A stretch of 64,000 nt of DNA from a virus. The stretch lies in UHGV virus genome UHGV-0371537. The stretch is one strand, 5' to 3'. The notes beneath the pieces were generated by a model that had not been told where the DNA came from, searched no databases, and was given only the letters and a program-made list of their open reading frames with translations. This document shows positions 10,918-56,524 of this stretch, piece after piece (positions within the stretch are counted from its first letter, which is position 1; the number at the start of each line of letters is the position of its first letter). Made by a program: the position numbers and the translations under genes.

Positions 10918-11082
10918 ATGAACTACGAACAAATTAAACTGGCTATTCTGATCTTTGCATGCATCATTGACATCATTGCATTTTCTCGTGAAACCGAAAG
11001 GAAAAACTACCTGAAAGCACTGGGGTATCTCGGGTTCTCTGCCTGGTTCTGTTATCTACTTGCAGGTCAAATCCTGAAATGA
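10918..11082 (+). CDS. small hydrophobic protein (54 aa), not in ORF track
   Basis: ATG overlaps gp46 stop; MNYEQIKLAILIFACIIDIIAF...FSAWFCYLLAGQILK has two hydrophobic segments; stop overlaps next start. Confidence 0.3.
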   Translation: MNYEQIKLAILIFACIIDIIAFSRETERKNYLKALGYLGFSAWFCYLLAGQILK

Positions 11083-11408
11083 AAGTCGTCCACTTCAAGA
11101 AGGAGCCATATGACGTCTACATCGGGCGTCCCGGGAAATGGGGAAACCCGTTCGAGGTCAAAGACCACGGGCGGGGGAACTGCATCGAGTTGTTTGAAGA
11201 CTACTTGTATGTGCGCCTGATTGAAGGGGATATCACCGAGGATGAACTCCTTGAGCTTGATGGGAAGATCTTGGGGTGTTGGTGTAAGCCGCGCCCCTGT
11301 CACGGAGATGTTTACGTCAAAGTCATTGGTCGTATTAAACTATTCCGCAAGCTGGGTAAATCCTTTACTGAACACCTGAGACAAACATATGTCAGAATCA
11401 AAAGATGA
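11079..11408 (+). CDS. DUF4326-like protein
   Basis: GNPF ... CWCKPRPCHGDV pattern, as I recall it for DUF4326. Confidence 0.45.
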   Translation: MKVVHFKKEPYDVYIGRPGKWGNPFEVKDHGRGNCIELFEDYLYVRLIEGDITEDELLELDGKILGCWCKPRPCHGDVYVKVIGRIKLFRKLGKSFTEHLRQTYVRIKR

Positions 11409-22353: not shown

Positions 22354-23013
22354 ATGAATTATCAAAATATCTATGACTCTCTGATACAAAGAGCCAAGAC
22401 CCGTTCATTGGTTGGTTATTCTGAAACCCACCATATTATCCCTAGATGTATGGGAGGGAAAGATGACAAACATAATCTGGTGGAGTTGACACCAGAAGAA
22501 CATTATTTAGCACATCAATTGTTAGTCAAAATATATCCCAAAAATTTCAAATTAGCATTTGCAGCTAATGCTATGTGCGTAAACAATGAATTCTCCGGTA
22601 GATCTTGTAACAAATTATTCGGTTGGTTGCGGAGAAAACTTTCTCATTCCAATAAACAGATGTACAAAGACAACCCTAATTTGAGGAAAATTCGTTCCGA
22701 TCAAATGAAACAGACACATGTAAAGTATTCTCATTTGCGGGAAATACAGTCTAAACGTTTGAAGGAAAACAATATATGCGTGATAAAACAACCTTGGGAA
22801 AGTAACCATGCCACCAAAGAGTCTTTGGATATATGGAAACGCGCCGACGAATATTATGATTGGTGGTTGTGCAACCAAAAAGGTTGCACGTTCATGGCGA
22901 AAGCGTTTGGGTTCAAAAACAAGACGACTCCGCATTTCACAATGATTAATAAATTTAAATCTGGGTGGAATCCCAAAGCCGACCCAGAGTGGTTAGAGTT
23001 TGTAAGTCAATAA
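22354..23013 (+). CDS. free-standing HNH homing endonuclease
   Basis: HNH core ETHHIIPRCMGGKDDKHNLVELTPEEHYLAH; inserted between phoH and nrdA. Confidence 0.75.
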   Translation: MNYQNIYDSLIQRAKTRSLVGYSETHHIIPRCMGGKDDKHNLVELTPEEHYLAHQLLVKIYPKNFKLAFAANAMCVNNEFSGRSCNKLFGWLRRKLSHSNKQMYKDNPNLRKIRSDQMKQTHVKYSHLREIQSKRLKENNICVIKQPWESNHATKESLDIWKRADEYYDWWLCNQKGCTFMAKAFGFKNKTTPHFTMINKFKSGWNPKADPEWLEFVSQ

Positions 23014-23072: not shown

Positions 23073-25361
23073 ATGAGCGAAATTAACGTCATTAAGCGGG
23101 ACGGATCTTCTGTCCCCTTTGATATTGAGAAACTACACGCAGTCGTAGACCGCGCATGTGACGGCCTGCCTGGTGTATCAATGTCAGAGGTGATCGCTGC
23201 ATCGAAGATTCAGTTCACCGACAACATGAGAACAGATCGCATTCAGGATATCCTCATCCAGGCTGCGGCTTCGCTGATCTCTGTAGACAAACCCAATTAC
23301 CAGTATGTGGCTGCTCGCCTGAAGTCATATGATCTGCGCAAGGCTGTCTATGGCCAGTACAAGCCGCCTCACCTGCTGGATATCTTCGTCAAGAACATCA
23401 AACAGCGTGTGTATGATCGTGAGTTCCTTGATCTCTACACGACCGAAGAGTTCAACGAGCTGAACGATGTTATCAACCACAAACGTGACAAGAACTTCAC
23501 CTGGGCGGCCATGGGTCAGCTGACAGAGAAGTATCTGCTGCGTGACCGTTCCAAGAAGGACAGCAAGATCTTCTATGAAACCCCACAGGTCATGTACATG
23601 GGCATCGCCATGGCGTTGTTCTCCAACTGGGACAAAGACAGCCGCCTGGATATGGTGAAGAAGTTCTATGAATATGCCAGCACAGGCAAGTTCAGTCTTC
23701 CAACCCCGATTATGGCAGGCGTTCGTACTCCTACCCGTCAGTTCAGTTCCTGCGTGTTGATCAAAACTGGTGACACCCTGGACTCTATCAACGCAACAGC
23801 CAAGACCATCGTTGACTATGTGTCCAAACGTGCGGGTATCGGCTTCGACATCGGGGCGATACGTGGGATTGGTAGTCCTATTCGCGGCGGAGAGATGGTT
23901 CACACAGGCCTGATCCCATTCATCAAGTATCTCACTGGGGCGCTCAAGTCTTGCTCCCAGGGCGGCATTCGTGGTGGTGCAGCAACAGCTTATATCCCTC
24001 TGTGGCATTACCAGTTCGATGACGTCGTTGTACTGAAGAATAACCGTGGCACTGAAGAAAACCGCGAACGCCGTATCGACTACGGTATTCAGATCAACCG
24101 CGTGATGTTTGAGCGCCTGGTTGCCAAGCAGCCTCTGTATCTGTTCGACCCGAAAGACAACCGCGAAATGTACGAAGCATACTTCTCCGACGTCGACAAG
24201 TTCCGTACTCTGTATGAGAACATGATCAAGGCCGCCGATGCTGGTCTGGTACGTTCTAAGAAGCTGCAGGCTGAAGAAGTGTTCCAGATGCTGTTAGACC
24301 AGCGTTCAGACACAGGCCGCATCTACATCGCATTTGTCGATCACATGAATGAATACAGCCCATTCAACCTCGACACGATCTACAGCTCCAACCTGTGTCT
24401 TGAAATCGCCCTGCCGACCCGTGAGTTTGAGCAGTACAACGATGAAAACGGGCGCGTGGCTCTGTGCACCCTGGCTTCCTTTAACCTGACGGCGTTCGAA
24501 GACCCGACTGAGATGGAAGACGTGGCGTTTGTGTTGGTGTCTGCGCTGGACATGCTGTTGGAATATCAGGACTATCCGGCAATCCAGGCTCGTAAGGCTG
24601 TTGAGGATTATCGCCCTCTGGGTGTTGGTATCGTGAACGTGGCTCACTTCTTGGCCAAGAACTTCACAGGCTATGGTTCTCCGGCTGGTCTTGAGATGTT
24701 GGATGCGTGGATGGCACACCTGCACTACTATCTGGTCAAGGCATCCAACCGTCTGGCGATGAAGTTCGGTGCATGCAAACGTGGAACCATCCACAATAAT
24801 GGGCAGGTCACTGCCGATCTTCAGCCGCTTCCACTTGATATCCTGCCGAATGGTAAGAAACCGGAAGGCATGGCATACGGCCTGGATTGGGAAGAACTGA
24901 AGGATGATCTGAAGACCTATGGTATCCGCAATGCCACCCTGCTGGCAGTAGCCCCTACCGAAAGCTCCTCACAAGTCCTCAACGCAACGAACGGCATTGA
25001 GCCACCGAAGGGCTTGGTAAGCATTAAGGGCAGCAAGGACGGCACGTACAAGCAGGTCGTTCCGGATGTAGAGACCCTTGGACCGCTGTATGACCTGAAG
25101 TGGGACCTGGAATGCATCGAGTACCTGAAGACCGCTGCTGTCATCCAGCGCTGGGTTGACCAGTCCATCAGTACCAACACATGGTATGACCCAGAGAAGT
25201 ACCCTGACGGCAAGATCCCTCGTGCTAAGATGATGCAGGATATCCTGTCGTTCTATATGTGGGGTGGTAAGACTCTGTATTACAACACGAACAAGGACGC
25301 CAAGGAAGACGAAGAGCTGAAACAGGCTGATGCCGTGGAATGTGAAAGTTGTATCGTGTAG
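23073..25361 (+). CDS. nrdA: ribonucleotide reductase large subunit (class Ia NrdA)
   Basis: N-terminal ATP cone (VIKRDGSSVPFDIEKL), active-site region NLCLEI ... CTLAS, 762 aa. Confidence 0.9.
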   Translation: MSEINVIKRDGSSVPFDIEKLHAVVDRACDGLPGVSMSEVIAASKIQFTDNMRTDRIQDILIQAAASLISVDKPNYQYVAARLKSYDLRKAVYGQYKPPHLLDIFVKNIKQRVYDREFLDLYTTEEFNELNDVINHKRDKNFTWAAMGQLTEKYLLRDRSKKDSKIFYETPQVMYMGIAMALFSNWDKDSRLDMVKKFYEYASTGKFSLPTPIMAGVRTPTRQFSSCVLIKTGDTLDSINATAKTIVDYVSKRAGIGFDIGAIRGIGSPIRGGEMVHTGLIPFIKYLTGALKSCSQGGIRGGAATAYIPLWHYQFDDVVVLKNNRGTEENRERRIDYGIQINRVMFERLVAKQPLYLFDPKDNREMYEAYFSDVDKFRTLYENMIKAADAGLVRSKKLQAEEVFQMLLDQRSDTGRIYIAFVDHMNEYSPFNLDTIYSSNLCLEIALPTREFEQYNDENGRVALCTLASFNLTAFEDPTEMEDVAFVLVSALDMLLEYQDYPAIQARKAVEDYRPLGVGIVNVAHFLAKNFTGYGSPAGLEMLDAWMAHLHYYLVKASNRLAMKFGACKRGTIHNNGQVTADLQPLPLDILPNGKKPEGMAYGLDWEELKDDLKTYGIRNATLLAVAPTESSSQVLNATNGIEPPKGLVSIKGSKDGTYKQVVPDVETLGPLYDLKWDLECIEYLKTAAVIQRWVDQSISTNTWYDPEKYPDGKIPRAKMMQDILSFYMWGGKTLYYNTNKDAKEDEELKQADAVECESCIV

Positions 25362-36753: not shown

Positions 36754-37497
36754 ATGTCACAAATCTATCGTCTGTTTGGGCTGGATTTCACACCAGCTCG
36801 TCTTGATGTGAAACTGACCACCTTCGAACCAACCGGATTTGAAGTGGGGTGCGCTCTGGGGTTTAATCGCCAGGGTAAATCTGTCCGTGAACAAAACATC
36901 TTGGATGTCTTGGGCGTTGAGTGGGATAGCCCTACCGCCTTGGATTTAGAAGATCAGGTCAAGTATGGGAATCAAGAAATCGCAGACTTCTTGCGTGATG
37001 TCTTGGCTGGCTACGAACACGCAAAATCCCATGTGAAAATGGCACAAGAAGCGTGTCTCAGACTATCACATTGCCTGTATTACCTTGGCCGCCACCGCAG
37101 TGATATGCAAATCGATTTCCCTGTCAATGTTCTGGAGCAATTCTCCAAGACTGAGTTTTACCTGGCGCAGGCTGATGGTGTGGTCATGAAAGCGAGTGAT
37201 GTGTTCAAGCACACCGCGAACGTGTCCAACGGGCATTTGCTGGTTGGGTGTGATCAGGTTGAACTGAAGATTGACCCAGACATGGAATATGACCAGAACA
37301 CCTGTCGGGCGATTCACAATTACATCAGCGTGATTGTTGAAACTCTGTACAGTGCGATTGAAGAAGTCATGGCCACTGAACAAAGGGAAGAAGTGATTCG
37401 CAGAGTTCGGGAAAACGTCGAAGCCAGAGTGAAACTGCAGTTCACACCATCTGAATATTCAGAAGACATCCCCAACTTCTACTTGCTGGATAAGTGA
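36754..37497 (+). CDS. hypothetical protein
   Basis: ATG 36754 after TGAGG SD. Confidence 0.45.
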   Translation: MSQIYRLFGLDFTPARLDVKLTTFEPTGFEVGCALGFNRQGKSVREQNILDVLGVEWDSPTALDLEDQVKYGNQEIADFLRDVLAGYEHAKSHVKMAQEACLRLSHCLYYLGRHRSDMQIDFPVNVLEQFSKTEFYLAQADGVVMKASDVFKHTANVSNGHLLVGCDQVELKIDPDMEYDQNTCRAIHNYISVIVETLYSAIEEVMATEQREEVIRRVRENVEARVKLQFTPSEYSEDIPNFYLLDK

Positions 37498-37547
37498 ATA
37501 AAACTTGTTTTCAATACTGACGTTGAAAGTTAATATTCACGCAAGTT

Positions 37548-37709: not shown

Positions 37710-38606
37710 ATGTCATATATTCTTCATGTAGAATCTGGTTCTAAATTTGATATTGAAGGCAAAGACGTTGCGGCTATCCAGGCCGAGATCAAGGCCGCAG
37801 GCCTGCTGATTGGCAACGTTACCCTGCGCCGTATGGTTGAAGGTGCTCTTGAATCTGCTAACGGCTTCGAACTCATCGAAGGTCTGAGCGAAGAAGAGCG
37901 ACAGGAAACTCAGGAAGCTCTGGCGCAAGCACAAGAGCAGGCTGAAGCCGTGGAAGCACTGAACGTAGCCGACACCGTAGCCGATGAAGCGCCGATTTCT
38001 GCTGACGCCACTTCTGGTATCGTTGTCGATTCTCAGGACGTGAAACCTGCCGAAGGTGATCAGGCGGCTGACACTGGCGCAACCACCGCATCCTCCGATG
38101 CTATCAAAGATGCCGTTGCCGAAGCCCTGAAAGAAGGCGATCAACCGTCCGACGCGAAAGTGAGTTCCCTGGCGTCTTCTATGCTGAAAGAAGCGGCGAA
38201 GGGTAAAACCCTGACACCTATGGCATCACAGGAAGAGCGTAAGCGCCGTCACACCAAACGCGAAGAAATGGTAGAAGCCGCTCGTGCGTCCAACCACGGT
38301 CCAATCCTGGCTGCCATTGAAGCAGGCGTCGTGCCGGGTGTGTTCCTCAGCTATGTTAACCCTGATATGCGCTGGTTCCAATTCCCAGTCACAGAACTGG
38401 CAGACCCAGAGAACCTGCATGCCCGCACTAACACATACGTTGACGTCGCGCCTATCGTTTCCGGCGGCTGGGGCTTCAGTCTGTACGTGAACGGCAAATC
38501 CTTCACTAAGCGTCAGAAAATCAAAGAGGCCGATGCCGAGTCTCTGGTGAACGCAATCAATGCCTGGTTGCCTCAGGCGCTGGCCGAAGCGAAAGCTGCT
38601 GCTTAA
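37710..38606 (+). CDS. acidic Ala/Glu-rich protein of unknown function
   Basis: ATG 37710 (MSYILHVESG...); long low-complexity A/E/D-rich centre. Confidence 0.45.
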   Translation: MSYILHVESGSKFDIEGKDVAAIQAEIKAAGLLIGNVTLRRMVEGALESANGFELIEGLSEEERQETQEALAQAQEQAEAVEALNVADTVADEAPISADATSGIVVDSQDVKPAEGDQAADTGATTASSDAIKDAVAEALKEGDQPSDAKVSSLASSMLKEAAKGKTLTPMASQEERKRRHTKREEMVEAARASNHGPILAAIEAGVVPGVFLSYVNPDMRWFQFPVTELADPENLHARTNTYVDVAPIVSGGWGFSLYVNGKSFTKRQKIKEADAESLVNAINAWLPQALAEAKAAA

Positions 38607-38636
38607 TTTAAGTTCAGAATCTGTTCAATAGATGAA

Positions 38637-38668
38637 GGGGCTGCTATAATAGCAGCTCCTTTTGTTTA
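38637..38668 (+). terminator. rho-independent terminator with TATAAT in the hairpin
   Basis: GGGCTGCTAT-A-ATAGCAGCTCC hairpin followed by TTTTGTTTATT; TGcTATAAT (extended -10-like) inside the stem. Confidence 0.6.
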
Positions 38669-38680
38669 TTGGAGCAGTCT

Positions 38681-39346
38681 ATGTCCTACTCCCTCAAGGG
38701 GTTGCTCAAGCGCCCCGTCCACACATTCATTAAACCGCCTGTCGTAAAGGGGATATACCCGGCACGAGGGCAAATCTATTACGTCAAAGGCTCGAATGGT
38801 AGCGGTAAATCTACCGTGCCTTCCCAGCTGGCGGAGAGGGATCCTCAGGCGTATGTCGTGACGCATGATAGCAAGATCATGCTGACGGTCTGTCCGTCAT
38901 TCAACGTGGTCTGCATTGGCAAATATGATAAGTCAAAGTCCAAGGGGGTTGATTCTCTGAAGGATACTGAACAAATGCTATTCGCCCTGAGCATCGCCGA
39001 TCTACCTGAATATCAGGTATACGATGTGATCTTTGAAGGCATCATCCCGTCAACACTGCTGAGTTCCTGGATTCCCCGCCTGACGCGCCCACCGCGCGAA
39101 CTGGTTGTCCTCTTCATGGACACCCCTCTTGAAACCTGCATCGCCCGTGTTAAATCACGTAACGGCGGTGCGGACTTCAATGAGAGCCTCGTGGTAGAGA
39201 AGTGGGGGCGCGTTCAAGACCACCGCCAGCGCCATAAGGGCTTGTTCCCTACGGTGGCCGCAGGTATGATGAAGTCTCACGGTCTAACAGTAGACCAGGC
39301 TGTAATGGCATTCCTCTGTCGTGATTTTGGGGATATTGATGACTAA
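38681..39346 (+). CDS. P-loop kinase (candidate nucleotide/nucleic-acid kinase of the base-modification module)
   Basis: Walker A GSNGSGKST near N-terminus; ATG 38681 with GGAG SD; adjacent to TS-family and dNMP kinase genes. Confidence 0.55.
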   Translation: MSYSLKGLLKRPVHTFIKPPVVKGIYPARGQIYYVKGSNGSGKSTVPSQLAERDPQAYVVTHDSKIMLTVCPSFNVVCIGKYDKSKSKGVDSLKDTEQMLFALSIADLPEYQVYDVIFEGIIPSTLLSSWIPRLTRPPRELVVLFMDTPLETCIARVKSRNGGADFNESLVVEKWGRVQDHRQRHKGLFPTVAAGMMKSHGLTVDQAVMAFLCRDFGDIDD

Positions 39347-39911
39347 GAAATTGGTCTATGGGGTTGGTCACAACGACATGCCCTATGGCACAGCTACGGT
39401 AAATGGAAAGGCAACCGACGAATATTCTGCTTGGTCGGGGTTGTTACAAAGGGCGTATGATCCAAAATACCATGCCAGAAATCCGACTTATGTTGGTTGC
39501 TCTGTCGTGGAAGAGTGGCATTTTCGATCGAAATTCGTTAAGTGGTTTGGTGTGAACTACGTTAAAGGATGGTGTCTAGACAAGGATATTTTGAATCCTG
39601 GAAACAAAGTTTATGGCCCAGACACATGCATCTATGTGCCCGTTTGGATCAATACATTTGCCAATGATAGCGGCGCAATAAGGGGTGGTCTCCCAATAGG
39701 AGTTTCATTAAACAAGACAACCGGAAAATATCTTTCTCAGTGTAAATCCGGTGGTAAAGTGATAAATCTGGGTTATTACGACGACCCCAAAGAAGCGCAC
39801 GAGGTTTGGTTGAGATTTAAGCTAAACCTGGTTTTGGAAAGGAAGAAAGACATGGATAGTATAGACCATCGTATTTATCCAAATCTGGTTCATATTTTGC
39901 AAAGTAAATGA
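39339..39911 (+). CDS. homing-endonuclease-like protein with AP2-type DNA-binding domain
   Basis: AP2-like segment TGKYLSQCKSGGKVINLGYYDDPKEAHEVW; N-terminal region resembles the HNH-associated module of phage homing endonucleases. Confidence 0.45.
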   Translation: MTKKLVYGVGHNDMPYGTATVNGKATDEYSAWSGLLQRAYDPKYHARNPTYVGCSVVEEWHFRSKFVKWFGVNYVKGWCLDKDILNPGNKVYGPDTCIYVPVWINTFANDSGAIRGGLPIGVSLNKTTGKYLSQCKSGGKVINLGYYDDPKEAHEVWLRFKLNLVLERKKDMDSIDHRIYPNLVHILQSK

Positions 39912-39927
39912 TTATTGGAGACCAATT

Positions 39928-40974
39928 ATGGAAATCAAAGCAATTAACAACAATGACATGCTGAAAAAGGCTGTCTTGGCTATCCGCGAATACGGGATTG
40001 AGTCAGACCCTGGCAACGCGGAGATTAACACGGACGGCACCCGCTTCCTTGATGGTGTGACGATTACCGTGGATGATATCCGTGACCGCTGGCTGTCTGT
40101 TGAAGGTCGTAACTCATCGGCTATCGCTGCCATCGGCGAGACCTTCTGGGTTCTGTCCGGGCGCGATGACGTTCGCTTCCTGTCCCGTGTGTTGCCCCGC
40201 GCCGCCAACTTTTCCGACAACGGCCACACATGGCGAGCCGCTTATGGTCCGCGTCTGTACGCCCATGGCCAGCTGGATAGCGTCATCAACCGCCTGCGTA
40301 AGAACCCAAACACTCGCCAGGCGTACCTCACCATCTATGACCCGGCTCTGGATTCAGATGCTGGCCTGGCGAAGTTCAGCGAGAGTGGCGAAGCGAAGAC
40401 TAAAGACATGGTGTGTAACCTGGCTCTGTTGTTCGCCATCGTTGAAGGTCGTCTGAACCTGACGGTCATCAACCGCTCGCAAGATGTTCTGTGGGGTATG
40501 AGTTCAATCAATTTCATTGAGTTCTCTATCCTTCAGGAAGTGATTGCTCAGGTGCTGGATGTTGATGTCGGTCAGTACAAGCTCTTCTCCAACAATCTTC
40601 ATTACTACAACAATGAAGTCAGCCAGAAGCAGCTGGGCAAGATCACGAAGGACACCAAAGTAGAAGCTGGGTTCATCAACTCCATGATTCACTTCAAGAA
40701 CGTGACCAACCAGAACCATATCCGGAATCTGTTCACTGGTGTGCTTCATCATTGTGATATCGGTAGCCCTTGGGAAACTGTGGTCGCCCACCTGAAGGAA
40801 TATGATGCTGATCGCGGCCTGATTGTACAGATGGCATACTGCCTGTATTGTAAGCTGAACGACAAGCTCATCAACATGAACCTGATTCAGGATCATGGTC
40901 TGAACATCGCGCTCACCCATTCCCCGGTTGACCGCAAGATCGTTGATCCTAAGTTCCTGGAAGGTGCAGCATGA
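39928..40974 (+). CDS. thymidylate synthase-family enzyme (candidate pyrimidine hydroxymethylase; non-canonical motifs)
   Basis: TS-fold motifs: TFWVLSGRDDVRFL (cf. ELLWFLQGDTNIAYL), catalytic Cys in MVCN (PCH in ThyA), GRLNLTVINRSQDV (cf. GKLSCQLYQRSCDV); about 100-aa C-terminal extension. Confidence 0.7.
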   Translation: MEIKAINNNDMLKKAVLAIREYGIESDPGNAEINTDGTRFLDGVTITVDDIRDRWLSVEGRNSSAIAAIGETFWVLSGRDDVRFLSRVLPRAANFSDNGHTWRAAYGPRLYAHGQLDSVINRLRKNPNTRQAYLTIYDPALDSDAGLAKFSESGEAKTKDMVCNLALLFAIVEGRLNLTVINRSQDVLWGMSSINFIEFSILQEVIAQVLDVDVGQYKLFSNNLHYYNNEVSQKQLGKITKDTKVEAGFINSMIHFKNVTNQNHIRNLFTGVLHHCDIGSPWETVVAHLKEYDADRGLIVQMAYCLYCKLNDKLINMNLIQDHGLNIALTHSPVDRKIVDPKFLEGAA

Positions 40975-41540: not shown

Positions 41541-42076
41541 TCACAGCAGGGCATATCAAAAGCCTGCTCGAACTCCAAAAGGCCACTAATGTGGCCTACT
41601 TTGGCGACGAGTGGCGAAACCACTGGACTGAAGTCGCGGTGGTGAACTCTGTATACCGCGAGTGGGCTGAGTTCCTTGACGAAGTATCCAGCAGCTGGAA
41701 GATATATGGCAGCGACCAGAAATGGCACCAGGTGAACGCGATTTACGAATTGGTGGACGTTGTTCACTTCATGCTGTCGCGTTTGCTACTGTCCAATCAG
41801 GCCATAGAAATTGAAATGCGTGACGAATACTTTGGTGTGGAAATTACTAAAGTCAATAACTTCAATGTCGTCACCACTATGTTCACAACGTTCATGACAG
41901 CACCGACCTGTCAGAATCTGGCGTACTTTATTGCGTATGCTTGTCCCTATTTGGGTATCGACTTTGAAACCTACATGCTGGCACACAAGCGCAAGAACGA
42001 TCGCAATCGTCTGCGTGCTGCTGGCGGTGCGGATTACGATAAGTCCGCCGAAACCCCTCTGACCCTGGAGTTCTAA
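41537..42076 (+). CDS. all-alpha NTP pyrophosphohydrolase (gp56 dCTPase/MazG-like)
   Basis: ELVDVVHFML motif and acidic EWAEFLDEV region resemble gp56/MazG-type pyrophosphatases. Confidence 0.5.
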   Translation: MITAGHIKSLLELQKATNVAYFGDEWRNHWTEVAVVNSVYREWAEFLDEVSSSWKIYGSDQKWHQVNAIYELVDVVHFMLSRLLLSNQAIEIEMRDEYFGVEITKVNNFNVVTTMFTTFMTAPTCQNLAYFIAYACPYLGIDFETYMLAHKRKNDRNRLRAAGGADYDKSAETPLTLEF

Positions 42077-55909: not shown

Positions 55910-56524
55910 ATGAGCAACTATCTTCAGGGGAAATACACCCCGGTTAATCCCAAGAAGTACCAGGGGAATGTGAACAACATCATCTTCCGCTCTTCGCTGG
56001 AGTTGGTGGCTTTCAAGTTCTGTGATATGAACTCCGCGATAGTGAAGTGGTCGTCTGAAGAGACTGTAATCCCTTACGTGTCTCCGGTTGACGGTCGGAC
56101 CCATCGTTACTTCATGGACCTCAAGGTGTGGACACACCGTGAAGGACAGGAAGAACTCCAGGTCACCCTCATTGAGATCAAGCCCAAAGACCAGATTAAG
56201 CAGCCGAAGAAGACTCCGTCTATGAAGGAATCAACCTTCAACAATGCGATGCGAACCTGGCTGGTCAACTCCGCCAAATGGGAAGCCACCCGCGAACTGT
56301 GTGCCAAGAAGAACTGGAAGTTCATTATCTGGACTGAAGAGCATCTTGTCCCAGGCGAAGATCCCGATGTTCGCAAACAGTTCGAACTGAAGTCGAAGAA
56401 GAAACGGGATATGGAGATGGAAGACCGCCGTCGTGCCGAACGCGTCAGATTCTTGAAAGAACAGATGCGGAAGGAGATTCATCCCGCCCCAACGGAACGG
56501 GATGATGGGCTGTTGCTTCCCTAA
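55910..56524 (+). CDS. late protein, possibly head-completion (gp4-like)
   Basis: FRSSLELVAF ... DLKVW ... IEIKPK pattern; recalled resemblance only. Confidence 0.3.
   Translation: MSNYLQGKYTPVNPKKYQGNVNNIIFRSSLELVAFKFCDMNSAIVKWSSEETVIPYVSPVDGRTHRYFMDLKVWTHREGQEELQVTLIEIKPKDQIKQPKKTPSMKESTFNNAMRTWLVNSAKWEATRELCAKKNWKFIIWTEEHLVPGEDPDVRKQFELKSKKKRDMEMEDRRRAERVRFLKEQMRKEIHPAPTERDDGLLLP

What the first reader, a model, noticed from the sequence alone, without database searches (positions are those of the whole stretch)
39339..39911. Homing-endonuclease-like AP2-domain gene inserted inside the modification cassette
This ORF sits between the P-loop kinase and the TS-family gene, overlapping the kinase stop. 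It carries an AP2-type DNA-binding signature (GKYLSQCKSGGKVINLGYYDDPKEAHEVW) and an N-terminal region typical of free-standing phage homing endonucleases. Its position suggests a mobile-element insertion, possibly catalytically degenerate.
Basis: partly seen in the sequence, partly recalled or inferred. Interest (0 to 1): 0.45.

Follow-up and report, generated by a model that had tools for sequence, protein, structure and literature searches.

The report
Mobile AP2-type homing endonuclease gene
This is an ordinary selfish "homing endonuclease" gene of a known phage family, caught between two thymidine-modification genes, and related phages show the filled, empty and half-deleted versions of the same site.

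Summary
The ORF at 39339-39911 (+, 190 aa) is real. Its ATG overlaps the stop codon of a 5-hmdU DNA kinase gene, and it ends 16 nt before a thymidylate-synthase-like gene. The window is an Ackermannviridae (Aglimvirinae-like) phage.

The C-terminal half is an AP2 DNA-binding domain, supported by fold and family-profile matches. The N-terminal half belongs to the published "IPA-HNH" homing-endonuclease family (ICP1 Gp209 homologue).

The mobile-insertion idea is strongly supported:
- The same gene (98-99% nt) sits at this site in only two other phages.
- Close relatives have a clean empty site.
- Dickeya Limestone phages keep only its last 77 bp, fused in frame to the kinase.
- A 67%-identical homologue occupies the same junction in Kuttervirus SS9.
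- The window carries a short donor-type tract (about 39209-39986) inside an MK-13-like background.

"Catalytically degenerate" is not supported. The canonical HNH histidine is absent from the whole family, but D81-K82-D83, Y92 and N105 are essentially invariant in 269 members. The ORF is under purifying selection (9 synonymous, 0 non-synonymous differences). The closest solved fold is PacI, a histidine-less His-Me nuclease that uses a tyrosine. No cleavage activity has been shown.

Verdict: a new member of a known kind, of modest interest.

The parts
39339..39911 (+). Free-standing homing-endonuclease-type gene (190 aa plus stop), IPA-HNH family
   Evidence: ORF and sequence. PHROG 953 E=2.4e-78. 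ICP1 Gp209 homologue, 36% identity, E=8e-24. AF2 model pLDDT 95.4.
39339..39683 (+). N-terminal nuclease-like domain (residues 1-115): helical region plus a beta-beta-alpha unit
39570..39665 (+). Predicted beta-beta-alpha core (residues 78-109) holding D81-K82-D83, N89, Y92, C97 and N105
   Evidence: Secondary structure E78-81, E98-101, H102-109. D81, K82, D83 and N105 are in 269/269 family members; Y92 and C97 in 268/269. There is no conserved His.
39687..39839 (+). AP2 DNA-binding domain (about residues 117-167: three strands plus a helix)
39341..39925 (+). Inserted segment relative to the empty allele (about 585 bp, boundaries +/-2 nt): the HEG, its stop and a 16-nt spacer with a GGAG (39917-39920) that serves the downstream gene
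   Evidence: Alignment with the MK-13 empty site ATTGAT|TGATGG. GC is 0.42 against 0.53 and 0.52 in the flanking genes.
39209..39986 (+). Donor-type (co-conversion) tract: the window matches the HEG+ haplotype here and the MK-13 haplotype outside it
   Evidence: Per-site haplotype table and sliding identity.
39849..39925 (+). 3' part of the element that survives as a remnant in Dickeya Limestone-type phages, fused in frame to their kinase
   Evidence: alignment. LIMEstone1 kinase CDS is 723 bp against 663 bp in MK-13. 19 Dickeya records cover 52% of the junction query.
38681..39346 (+). Upstream host gene: 5-hmdU DNA kinase. Its last two codons and its stop now lie inside the HEG start region.
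   Evidence: Pfam PF18748 E=1.7e-106. The start was chosen by comparison with annotated relatives.
39928..40974 (+). Downstream host gene: thymidylate-synthase-like gene (dUMP hydroxymethylase by the family literature), a candidate location for the target
   Evidence: Pfam PF00303 E=4e-16, PHROG 3676. The allele pattern is linked to HEG state.

Best explanation
This is a free-standing homing endonuclease gene of the IPA-HNH/AP2 family. It lies exactly at the junction between the 5-hmdU DNA kinase gene and the TS-like gene of an Ackermannviridae phage.

Proposed mechanism (inferred, not shown): the gene is co-transcribed and translationally coupled with the kinase. During mixed infection with a relative that lacks it, the C-terminal AP2 domain binds a specific sequence at or near the kinase/TS junction of the empty allele. 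The N-terminal beta-beta-alpha domain then nicks or cuts there. That domain lacks the usual histidine. It probably uses invariant D81/N105 for the metal, and K82 and/or Y92 in place of the histidine, as PacI uses a tyrosine. Recombinational repair from the HEG+ genome copies in the gene plus about 40-130 bp of flank on each side.

The element brings its own Shine-Dalgarno for the TS-like gene, so the operon keeps working.

Because the window phage has an MK-13-type background outside 39209-39986, its self-immunity implies that the recognition site overlaps this tract, most simply the junction that the insertion splits.
For: Shown:
- Three allelic states occur at one site. Full copies are in the window, pSal-SNUABM-02 and CAU_YEP3. 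The site is empty, with kinase TGA overlapping TS ATG, in MK-13; several other Agtrevirus/Enterobacter records cover only the two flanks of the junction query, as MK-13 does, and Kuttervirus Marshall is empty by its annotation. A 77-bp 3' remnant, left by a 508-bp deletion between GAC repeats, is present in LIMEstone1, and 19 Dickeya records give the same 52% coverage.
- The HEG is 98.4-99.3% identical in nt among three phages whose kinase genes are about 92% and whose TS genes are 74% identical. The window genome is only about 89% identical to its nearest relatives.
- The haplotype switches sharply at 39208/39211 and at 39966/39987.
- A 67%-identical homologue sits at the same junction in the other subfamily (Kuttervirus SS9). 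A paralogue lies between the topoisomerase II subunit genes in SKML-39.
- GC is low (0.42), in the lowest 3% of 585-bp windows.
- Selection is purifying: 9 synonymous and 0 non-synonymous differences vs pSal-SNUABM-02, P=9e-7.
- AP2 fold.
- N-domain fold hits are all His-Me nucleases.
- D-K-D, Y and N are invariant in 269 members.
- The protein belongs to a family already described as HEGs that sit at recombination boundaries (PMC10448857).

Background: Aglimvirinae are reported to carry 14-25 HEGs at variable positions (PMC8472413).
Against: - No cleavage activity has been shown for this protein, and I found none reported for any IPA-HNH member.
- No Pfam nuclease domain is detected.
- A profile-profile comparison with the I-HmuI/HNH_3 family found nothing (probability <1%).
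- The canonical catalytic His is absent.
- The tract rests on only about six informative flank sites.
- This region of the genome is mosaic anyway, with other low-identity blocks.
- The target site is unknown.
- pSal-SNUABM-02/CAU_YEP3 and SS9 carry strongly divergent TS alleles. This would suggest a target inside TS, yet the window combines the HEG with the common TS allele.
Confidence: 0.78

Rival explanations
1. It is a nuclease-dead, domesticated AP2 DNA-binding protein. It would act as a regulator or competitor-silencing factor derived from a HEG, binding DNA without cutting.
For: There is no canonical His, no Pfam nuclease hit and no hhalign link to HNH_3. AP2 domains from HEG-like proteins have been co-opted as DNA-binding silencers (CasPRs, bioRxiv 10.64898/2026.02.23.707548; CapR, PMC10448857). 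The gene is under purifying selection and is translationally coupled inside an essential operon.
Against: The gene is present in only 3 genomes of its type, about a dozen more carry the 67% lineage, and about 270 related records carry this gene cluster. Limestone phages have deleted it, and phage 38 has a frameshifted copy. A useful regulator would not show this invade-and-decay pattern or a tight co-conversion tract. The invariant D-K-D/Y/N set lies in the beta-beta-alpha unit, not in the AP2 domain.
Confidence: 0.12
2. It is passive cargo. The ORF would be moved by ordinary homologous recombination between co-infecting phages, or by another nuclease acting in trans, and the sharp boundaries would be ordinary mosaicism.
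For: The surrounding 7 kb contains several other blocks of sharply lower identity between the same genomes (36850-37500, 37770-38150, 41600-41940). The window holds at least one other HEG (22354-23013).
Against: Two diverged lineages (67% aa) occupy exactly the same inter-codon junction in two subfamilies. The donor tract is centred on the ORF and is only about 780 bp long. The family as a whole shows HEG-type distribution (PMC10448857).
Confidence: 0.07
3. It is a decaying pseudogene-like relic of a HEG that no longer encodes a functional protein.
For: HEGs commonly degenerate after fixation (PMC2248197). Relatives show a remnant and a frameshifted copy.
Against: The 190-codon frame is intact and keeps every family-invariant residue. 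It has 9 synonymous and 0 non-synonymous differences from pSal-SNUABM-02 (P=9e-7), and 12-13 differences in all with one amino-acid change. The AF2 model is confident.
Confidence: 0.03

Closest known systems
IPA-HNH homing endonuclease genes (ICP1 Gp59, Gp115-116, Gp209; Barth, Dunham & Seed 2023, PMC10448857)
   Same: Direct homology to Gp209: 36% identity, E=8e-24, including the LDKDI...GNK.Y.PD.C.fV...N motif. The architecture is the same: an N-terminal domain invisible to Pfam HNH_3 plus a C-terminal AP2 domain. It is free-standing, sits next to nucleotide-metabolism genes and lies at a boundary of genetic exchange.
   Different: The host lineage differs (Ackermannviridae with hypermodified thymidine), as does the insertion site (5-hmdU kinase/TS-like junction). 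The paper does not mention Ackermannviridae or discuss catalytic residues.
Classical HNN/HNH_3-AP2 homing endonucleases (Magnani et al. 2004; Xanthomonas phages Xp10/OP1/Xop411, PMC2248197)
   Same: A nuclease-type N-terminal module fused to an AP2 DNA-binding domain. These are free-standing phage genes that spread and then degenerate.
   Different: Those proteins have the Asp/His...DNR...NLRE...EN boxes of HNH_3. This protein has none of them, gets no HNH_3 Pfam hit and does not align with the I-HmuI family by hhalign.
PacI restriction endonuclease (PDB 3m7k/3ldy; His-Me finger group 20)
   Different: Sequence identity is 16% and no sequence-level homology is detected. PacI is known to have two Cys4 zinc sites (my own knowledge), whereas this family has only one invariant Cys. 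No residue-level superposition could be obtained, so the Tyr equivalence is an inference.
T4-type free-standing HEGs and intronless homing (SegB, SegE, SegG, MobE)
   Same: The gene sits between conserved genes. It shows presence/absence polymorphism among relatives, co-conversion of flanking markers and divergent neighbouring alleles in HEG+ genomes. It acts on modified phage DNA.
   Different: The nuclease families differ (GIY-YIG and canonical HNH). For those enzymes, cleavage and marker exclusion were shown experimentally; here they are only inferred.
CasPR / CapR domesticated HEG-derived DNA binders
   Same: They use an AP2 (CasPR) or HEG-derived DNA-binding domain in a small phage protein.
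   Different: CasPRs pair AP2 with a Cys-rich CapR zinc-finger domain and sit in anti-CRISPR loci of Bacillota prophages. This protein has no such Cys cluster and behaves as a mobile insertion.

Membership tests
IPA-HNH HEG family (PMC10448857) | Sequence homology to ICP1 Gp59/Gp115-116/Gp209 | tested here: met
   tblastn hit to ICP1 at the CDS annotated 'previously called GP209'. BLASTP E=8e-24, 36% identity over 145 aa.
IPA-HNH HEG family (PMC10448857) | N-terminal domain too divergent for the Pfam HNH_3 profile, combined with a C-terminal AP2 domain | tested here: met
   No HNH-type Pfam hit at E<=1, and AP2 at residues 120-163. AP2 fold confirmed.
AP2/ERF DNA-binding domain (PF00847) | Profile match above Pfam's gathering score | tested here: not met
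   17.6 bits against a 33.3 cut-off, E=0.005. 19 of 58 homologues match at E<=0.01, best 8e-8.
AP2/ERF DNA-binding domain (PF00847) | Three-stranded sheet packed on a helix, superposable on solved AP2 domains | tested here: met
AP2/ERF DNA-binding domain (PF00847) | Sequence-specific DNA binding | not testable with these tools
   The Arg/Trp contact residues of ERF1 are mostly not conserved in the printed alignment, so the specificity cannot be guessed.
His-Me finger (HNH / beta-beta-alpha-Me) nuclease superfamily | Beta-hairpin plus helix core superposable on known members | tested here: inconclusive
His-Me finger (HNH / beta-beta-alpha-Me) nuclease superfamily | Catalytic histidine at the end of strand 1 | tested here: not met
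   The position is occupied by invariant D81-K82-D83. No His is conserved anywhere in residues 76-110 of 269 members. An invariant Tyr in the loop could substitute, as in PacI. That is an inference.
His-Me finger (HNH / beta-beta-alpha-Me) nuclease superfamily | Metal-ligand Asn/His/Asp in the core helix | tested here: met
   N105 in helix 102-109 is present in 269/269 members. Its role as a metal ligand is inferred.
HNH_3 / I-HmuI-type homing endonucleases (PF13392) | Profile-level similarity to the I-HmuI family | tested here: not met
   hhalign of the 269-member N-domain profile against 120 I-HmuI relatives gave probability 0.1% (whole domain) and 0.5% (core only). There is no Pfam hit.
Free-standing homing endonuclease gene (functional definition) | Presence/absence polymorphism at one site among related genomes | tested here: met
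   Full, empty and remnant alleles.
Free-standing homing endonuclease gene (functional definition) | Co-conversion of flanking markers, and higher identity of the element than of its flanks | tested here: met
   Tract about 39209-39986. HEG 98.4-99.3% against kinase 92% and TS 74%.
Free-standing homing endonuclease gene (functional definition) | Site-specific cleavage of the HEG-less allele, and biased inheritance in crosses | not testable with these tools
   Needs a biochemical assay and mixed infections.

The most novel reading that the evidence does not exclude
The N-terminal domain of this very large phage family (more than 6,000 clusters at 50% identity) may be an active His-Me-finger nuclease that has replaced the universal catalytic histidine. 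In its place would be a fixed D-K-D / Tyr / Asn constellation working in a PacI-like, tyrosine-assisted way. In Ackermannviridae this chemistry plus an AP2 reader would cut DNA whose thymidines are hypermodified. That would define a biochemically new class of homing nuclease. It would also give a natural, mappable target (the kinase/TS junction) on which to characterise it.
Probability: 0.3. Interest if true: 0.55.

Novelty: new member of a known kind. Interest (0 to 1): 0.3.

Why it matters
On its own this is one more selfish gene in a phage family already known to be full of them. Its value is as a clean worked example. Full, empty, truncated and frameshifted alleles of one site are all available in sequenced phages. 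The co-conversion tract narrows where the nuclease should cut. This makes the uncharacterised IPA-HNH/AP2 nuclease family, which lacks the canonical histidine, directly testable on a defined substrate. It also matters for annotation. The extra 20 residues on the Limestone-phage 5-hmdU kinase are a fossil of this gene, not part of the enzyme. The divergent TS-like alleles in some phages are linked to HEG occupancy.

Tried and rejected
1. Pfam scan for HNH, GIY-YIG or other nuclease domains found none; only a weak AP2 hit.
2. Family profile (whole protein, then N-domain only) against all PDB sequences gave only AP2 proteins. For the N-domain the hits were ferritin and deoxycytidine kinase at E about 0.01-0.3. 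I regard these as chance, because the folds differ from the model.
3. hhalign of the N-domain profile against an I-HmuI/HNH_3 alignment built for the purpose gave no alignment. I therefore do not file the protein under HNH_3.
5. A paralogue search inside the window (tblastn) found none.
6. I considered a CapR/CasPR-type architecture and rejected it. There is no Cys cluster, and the only invariant Cys is C97.
7. I considered that the spacer after the HEG is a duplicated copy of the kinase 3' end (alignment). The similarity is about 11 of 19 positions around a GGAG and could simply reflect the need for a ribosome-binding site, so I make no claim.
8. I considered a GCC-box-like AP2 target in the GC-rich stretch GGTGGCCGCAGG upstream of the junction. 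I dropped it because the ERF base-contact residues are not conserved.
9. The PacI structure paper and Magnani et al. 2004 could not be read.
10. No promoter-like site lies directly upstream of the ORF.

Full report
**Observation.** ATG 39339 to TGA 39909-39911 on the + strand encodes 190 aa. The ATG overlaps the last codons of the upstream gene (…GAT GAC TAA, stop 39344-39346). A GGGG lies 6 nt upstream of the ATG. No promoter-like site lies directly in front of it, and a strong terminator-like hairpin sits only upstream of the kinase (38634-38662). The gene is therefore read as part of the kinase operon. The upstream gene is a 5-hmdU DNA kinase (PF18748, E=1.7e-106). The downstream genes are a thymidylate-synthase-like gene, a dNMP kinase and a dUTPase_2/MazG-like pyrophosphohydrolase. 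This is the thymidine-hypermodification and nucleotide cluster that the literature describes as conserved in all Ackermannviridae (PMC8472413).

The window itself is an Aglimvirinae-like phage. It is only about 89% identical to the nearest records in the phage collection.

**The protein: C-terminal half.** Pfam gives only a sub-threshold AP2 hit for this sequence (E=0.005, 17.6 bits against a 33.3 cut-off). The domain is nonetheless real:
- 19 of 58 homologues hit AP2, best E=8e-8.
- The family profile matches the WRI1 AP2 domain at E=7.6e-6.

**The protein: N-terminal half.** PHROG 953, annotated "HNH endonuclease", matches at E=2.4e-78. The protein is homologous to ICP1 Gp209. Gp209 is a founding member of the "IPA-HNH" homing endonuclease family of Barth, Dunham and Seed (PMC10448857). 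That family is defined by an N-terminal domain too divergent for Pfam HNH_3 plus a C-terminal AP2 domain. The family is very large: 6,124 cluster representatives at 50% identity match at E<=1e-30.

**Is the N-terminal domain a nuclease, and is it degenerate?**
- Sequence methods do not link it to canonical HNH. There is no Pfam hit and no meaningful PDB sequence hit. hhalign against 120 I-HmuI relatives gives less than 1% probability.
- Fold evidence is moderate but consistent. A domain-only model (pLDDT 90.3) has a beta (78-81), loop, beta (98-101), helix (102-109) unit.
- In 269 family members, D81, K82, D83 and N105 are present in 269/269, and Y92 and C97 in 268/269. No histidine is conserved in the core.
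- PacI is the known His-Me nuclease that lacks the histidine and uses a tyrosine in the omega loop instead (PMC5714182). Y92 lies in the corresponding loop.

I infer a variant active site, not a decayed one. Residue-level equivalence could not be checked.

Independent of mechanism, the ORF is under purifying selection. There are 9 synonymous and 0 non-synonymous differences from pSal-SNUABM-02 (P=9e-7 under neutrality). With CAU_YEP3 included, there are 12-13 differences and one amino-acid change.

**Mobility: allele states at one junction.**
- Full copy: the same gene (100% and 99.5% aa; 98.4% and 99.3% nt) is at the same site in Salmonella phage pSal-SNUABM-02 and Yersinia phage CAU_YEP3 only.
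- Empty site: MK-13 has a clean empty site in which the kinase TGA overlaps the TS ATG (ATTGAT|TGATGG). Ag3, SKML-39, P46FS4 and other Agtrevirus/Enterobacter records cover only the two flanks of the junction query (44-46% coverage), as MK-13 does.
- Remnant: LIMEstone1 retains only the last 77 bp of the gene plus the spacer. The remnant was left by a 508-bp deletion between two GAC triplets. It is fused in frame to the kinase, which gains a 20-residue tail, DMDGIDHRIYPNLGHILQSK. The 19 Dickeya records give the same 52% coverage of the junction query.
- Second lineage: in the other subfamily, Kuttervirus SS9 carries a 67%-identical homologue at the same junction. Phage 38 has that copy with a 1-nt deletion. 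Marshall is empty.
- Paralogue: a 52%-identical paralogue lies between the two topoisomerase II subunit genes in SKML-39; Limestone phages carry a similarly diverged copy whose context I did not inspect.

**Mobility: composition and co-conversion.** The inserted 585 bp has 42% GC, against 52-53% in the flanking genes. A site-by-site comparison shows where the window changes haplotype:
- Up to 39208 the window follows the MK-13 haplotype.
- From 39211 to 39966 it follows the HEG+ haplotype.
- From 39987 onward it follows MK-13 again.

This is a co-conversion tract of about 130 bp upstream and 40-60 bp downstream of the insert.

**A linked observation.** pSal-SNUABM-02/CAU_YEP3 and SS9 each carry a strongly divergent TS-like allele, 74% and 66-71% nt identity to the others. 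In contrast, the empty, remnant and window alleles form one group at 85-96%, even across subfamilies. This fits the published picture of nuclease genes at boundaries of exchange. It may also mean that those TS alleles are resistant variants. The window combines the HEG with the common TS allele. If the enzyme is active, its target must therefore differ between the window and MK-13. That confines the target to 39209-39986, most simply the junction that the insertion splits. This step is inference.

**Comparison and novelty.** The gene is a member of the IPA-HNH family by homology and architecture. It is not a member of HNH_3 by any test run here. It works like T4-type free-standing HEGs (intronless homing), but no activity has been shown for it, and I found none reported for any IPA-HNH protein. 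The records already annotate it as "HNH endonuclease" or "AP2 domain-containing protein". Aglimvirinae are reported to hold 14-25 HEGs at variable positions.

Three things are new here, all minor:
- the three-state allele series, including the kinase-fused fossil;
- the mapped co-conversion tract;
- the family-wide D-K-D/Y/N signature with PacI as the nearest fold.

**Verdict.** Interest is modest (0.3).

Noticed in passing
L003 (Dickeya phage LIMEstone1) 3274-3349; corresponds to window 39849-39925: The annotated 'thymidylate kinase' (5-hmdU DNA kinase) of Limestone-type Dickeya phages is 20 residues longer than in MK-13. Its tail is the C-terminus of a deleted copy of this HEG, read in the HEG's frame after a 508-bp deletion between GAC repeats.
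   Followed up: yes
window 39928-40974; L001 3847-4896, L002 3859-4908, L006 3090-4130: The TS-like gene falls into allele classes that track HEG history. pSal-SNUABM-02/CAU_YEP3 are 74% and SS9 is 66-71% nt identical to the others. The empty, remnant and window alleles are 85-96% identical to one another, even across subfamilies. These may be HEG-resistant alleles or co-transferred cassettes.
   Followed up: partly
L009 (Salmonella phage 38) about 1201-1210: The SS9-type HEG copy in phage 38 has a 1-nt deletion (GCGTTGG to GCG-TGG) that frameshifts it after about codon 19. The record annotates only a 180-bp fragment. This is either real decay or a sequencing error.
   Followed up: partly
window 22354-23013 (+): A second, unrelated homing-endonuclease-type ORF (219 aa...ETHHIIPRCMGG...) matches PHROG 655 'homing endonuclease' at E=4e-66. 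It lies immediately upstream of the large ORF at 23073-25361, which I took to be nrdA (function not tested).
   Followed up: partly
window 55910-56524 (+): A 204-aa ORF carries a TnsA-like endonuclease N-terminal domain (PF08722, E=9e-18). It may be another nuclease-type mobile or accessory gene.
   Followed up: no
window 36850-37500, 37770-38150, 41600-41940: These are blocks of sharply reduced identity (0.4-0.75) between the window and its closest relatives, set inside otherwise 90-99% identical sequence. They lie in the two ORFs upstream of the kinase and in the dUTPase_2/MazG-like gene. They show local mosaicism that is not tied to the HEG.
   Followed up: no
L007 (Salmonella phage SKML-39) 2504-3076: A 52%-identical paralogue of this HEG lies between the two topoisomerase II subunit genes in SKML-39. 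The family therefore occupies several sites in Ackermannviridae genomes. No paralogue is present in this 64-kb window.
   Followed up: partly
window 38634-38662 and 38669/38681: A 13-bp-stem terminator-like hairpin lies just before the kinase gene. The mechanical ORF start (TTG 38669) is probably wrong. Relatives annotate the ATG equivalent to 38681.
   Followed up: no
window 11079-11408 (+): A small ORF with a DUF4326 domain (E=2e-24) of unknown function.
   Followed up: no
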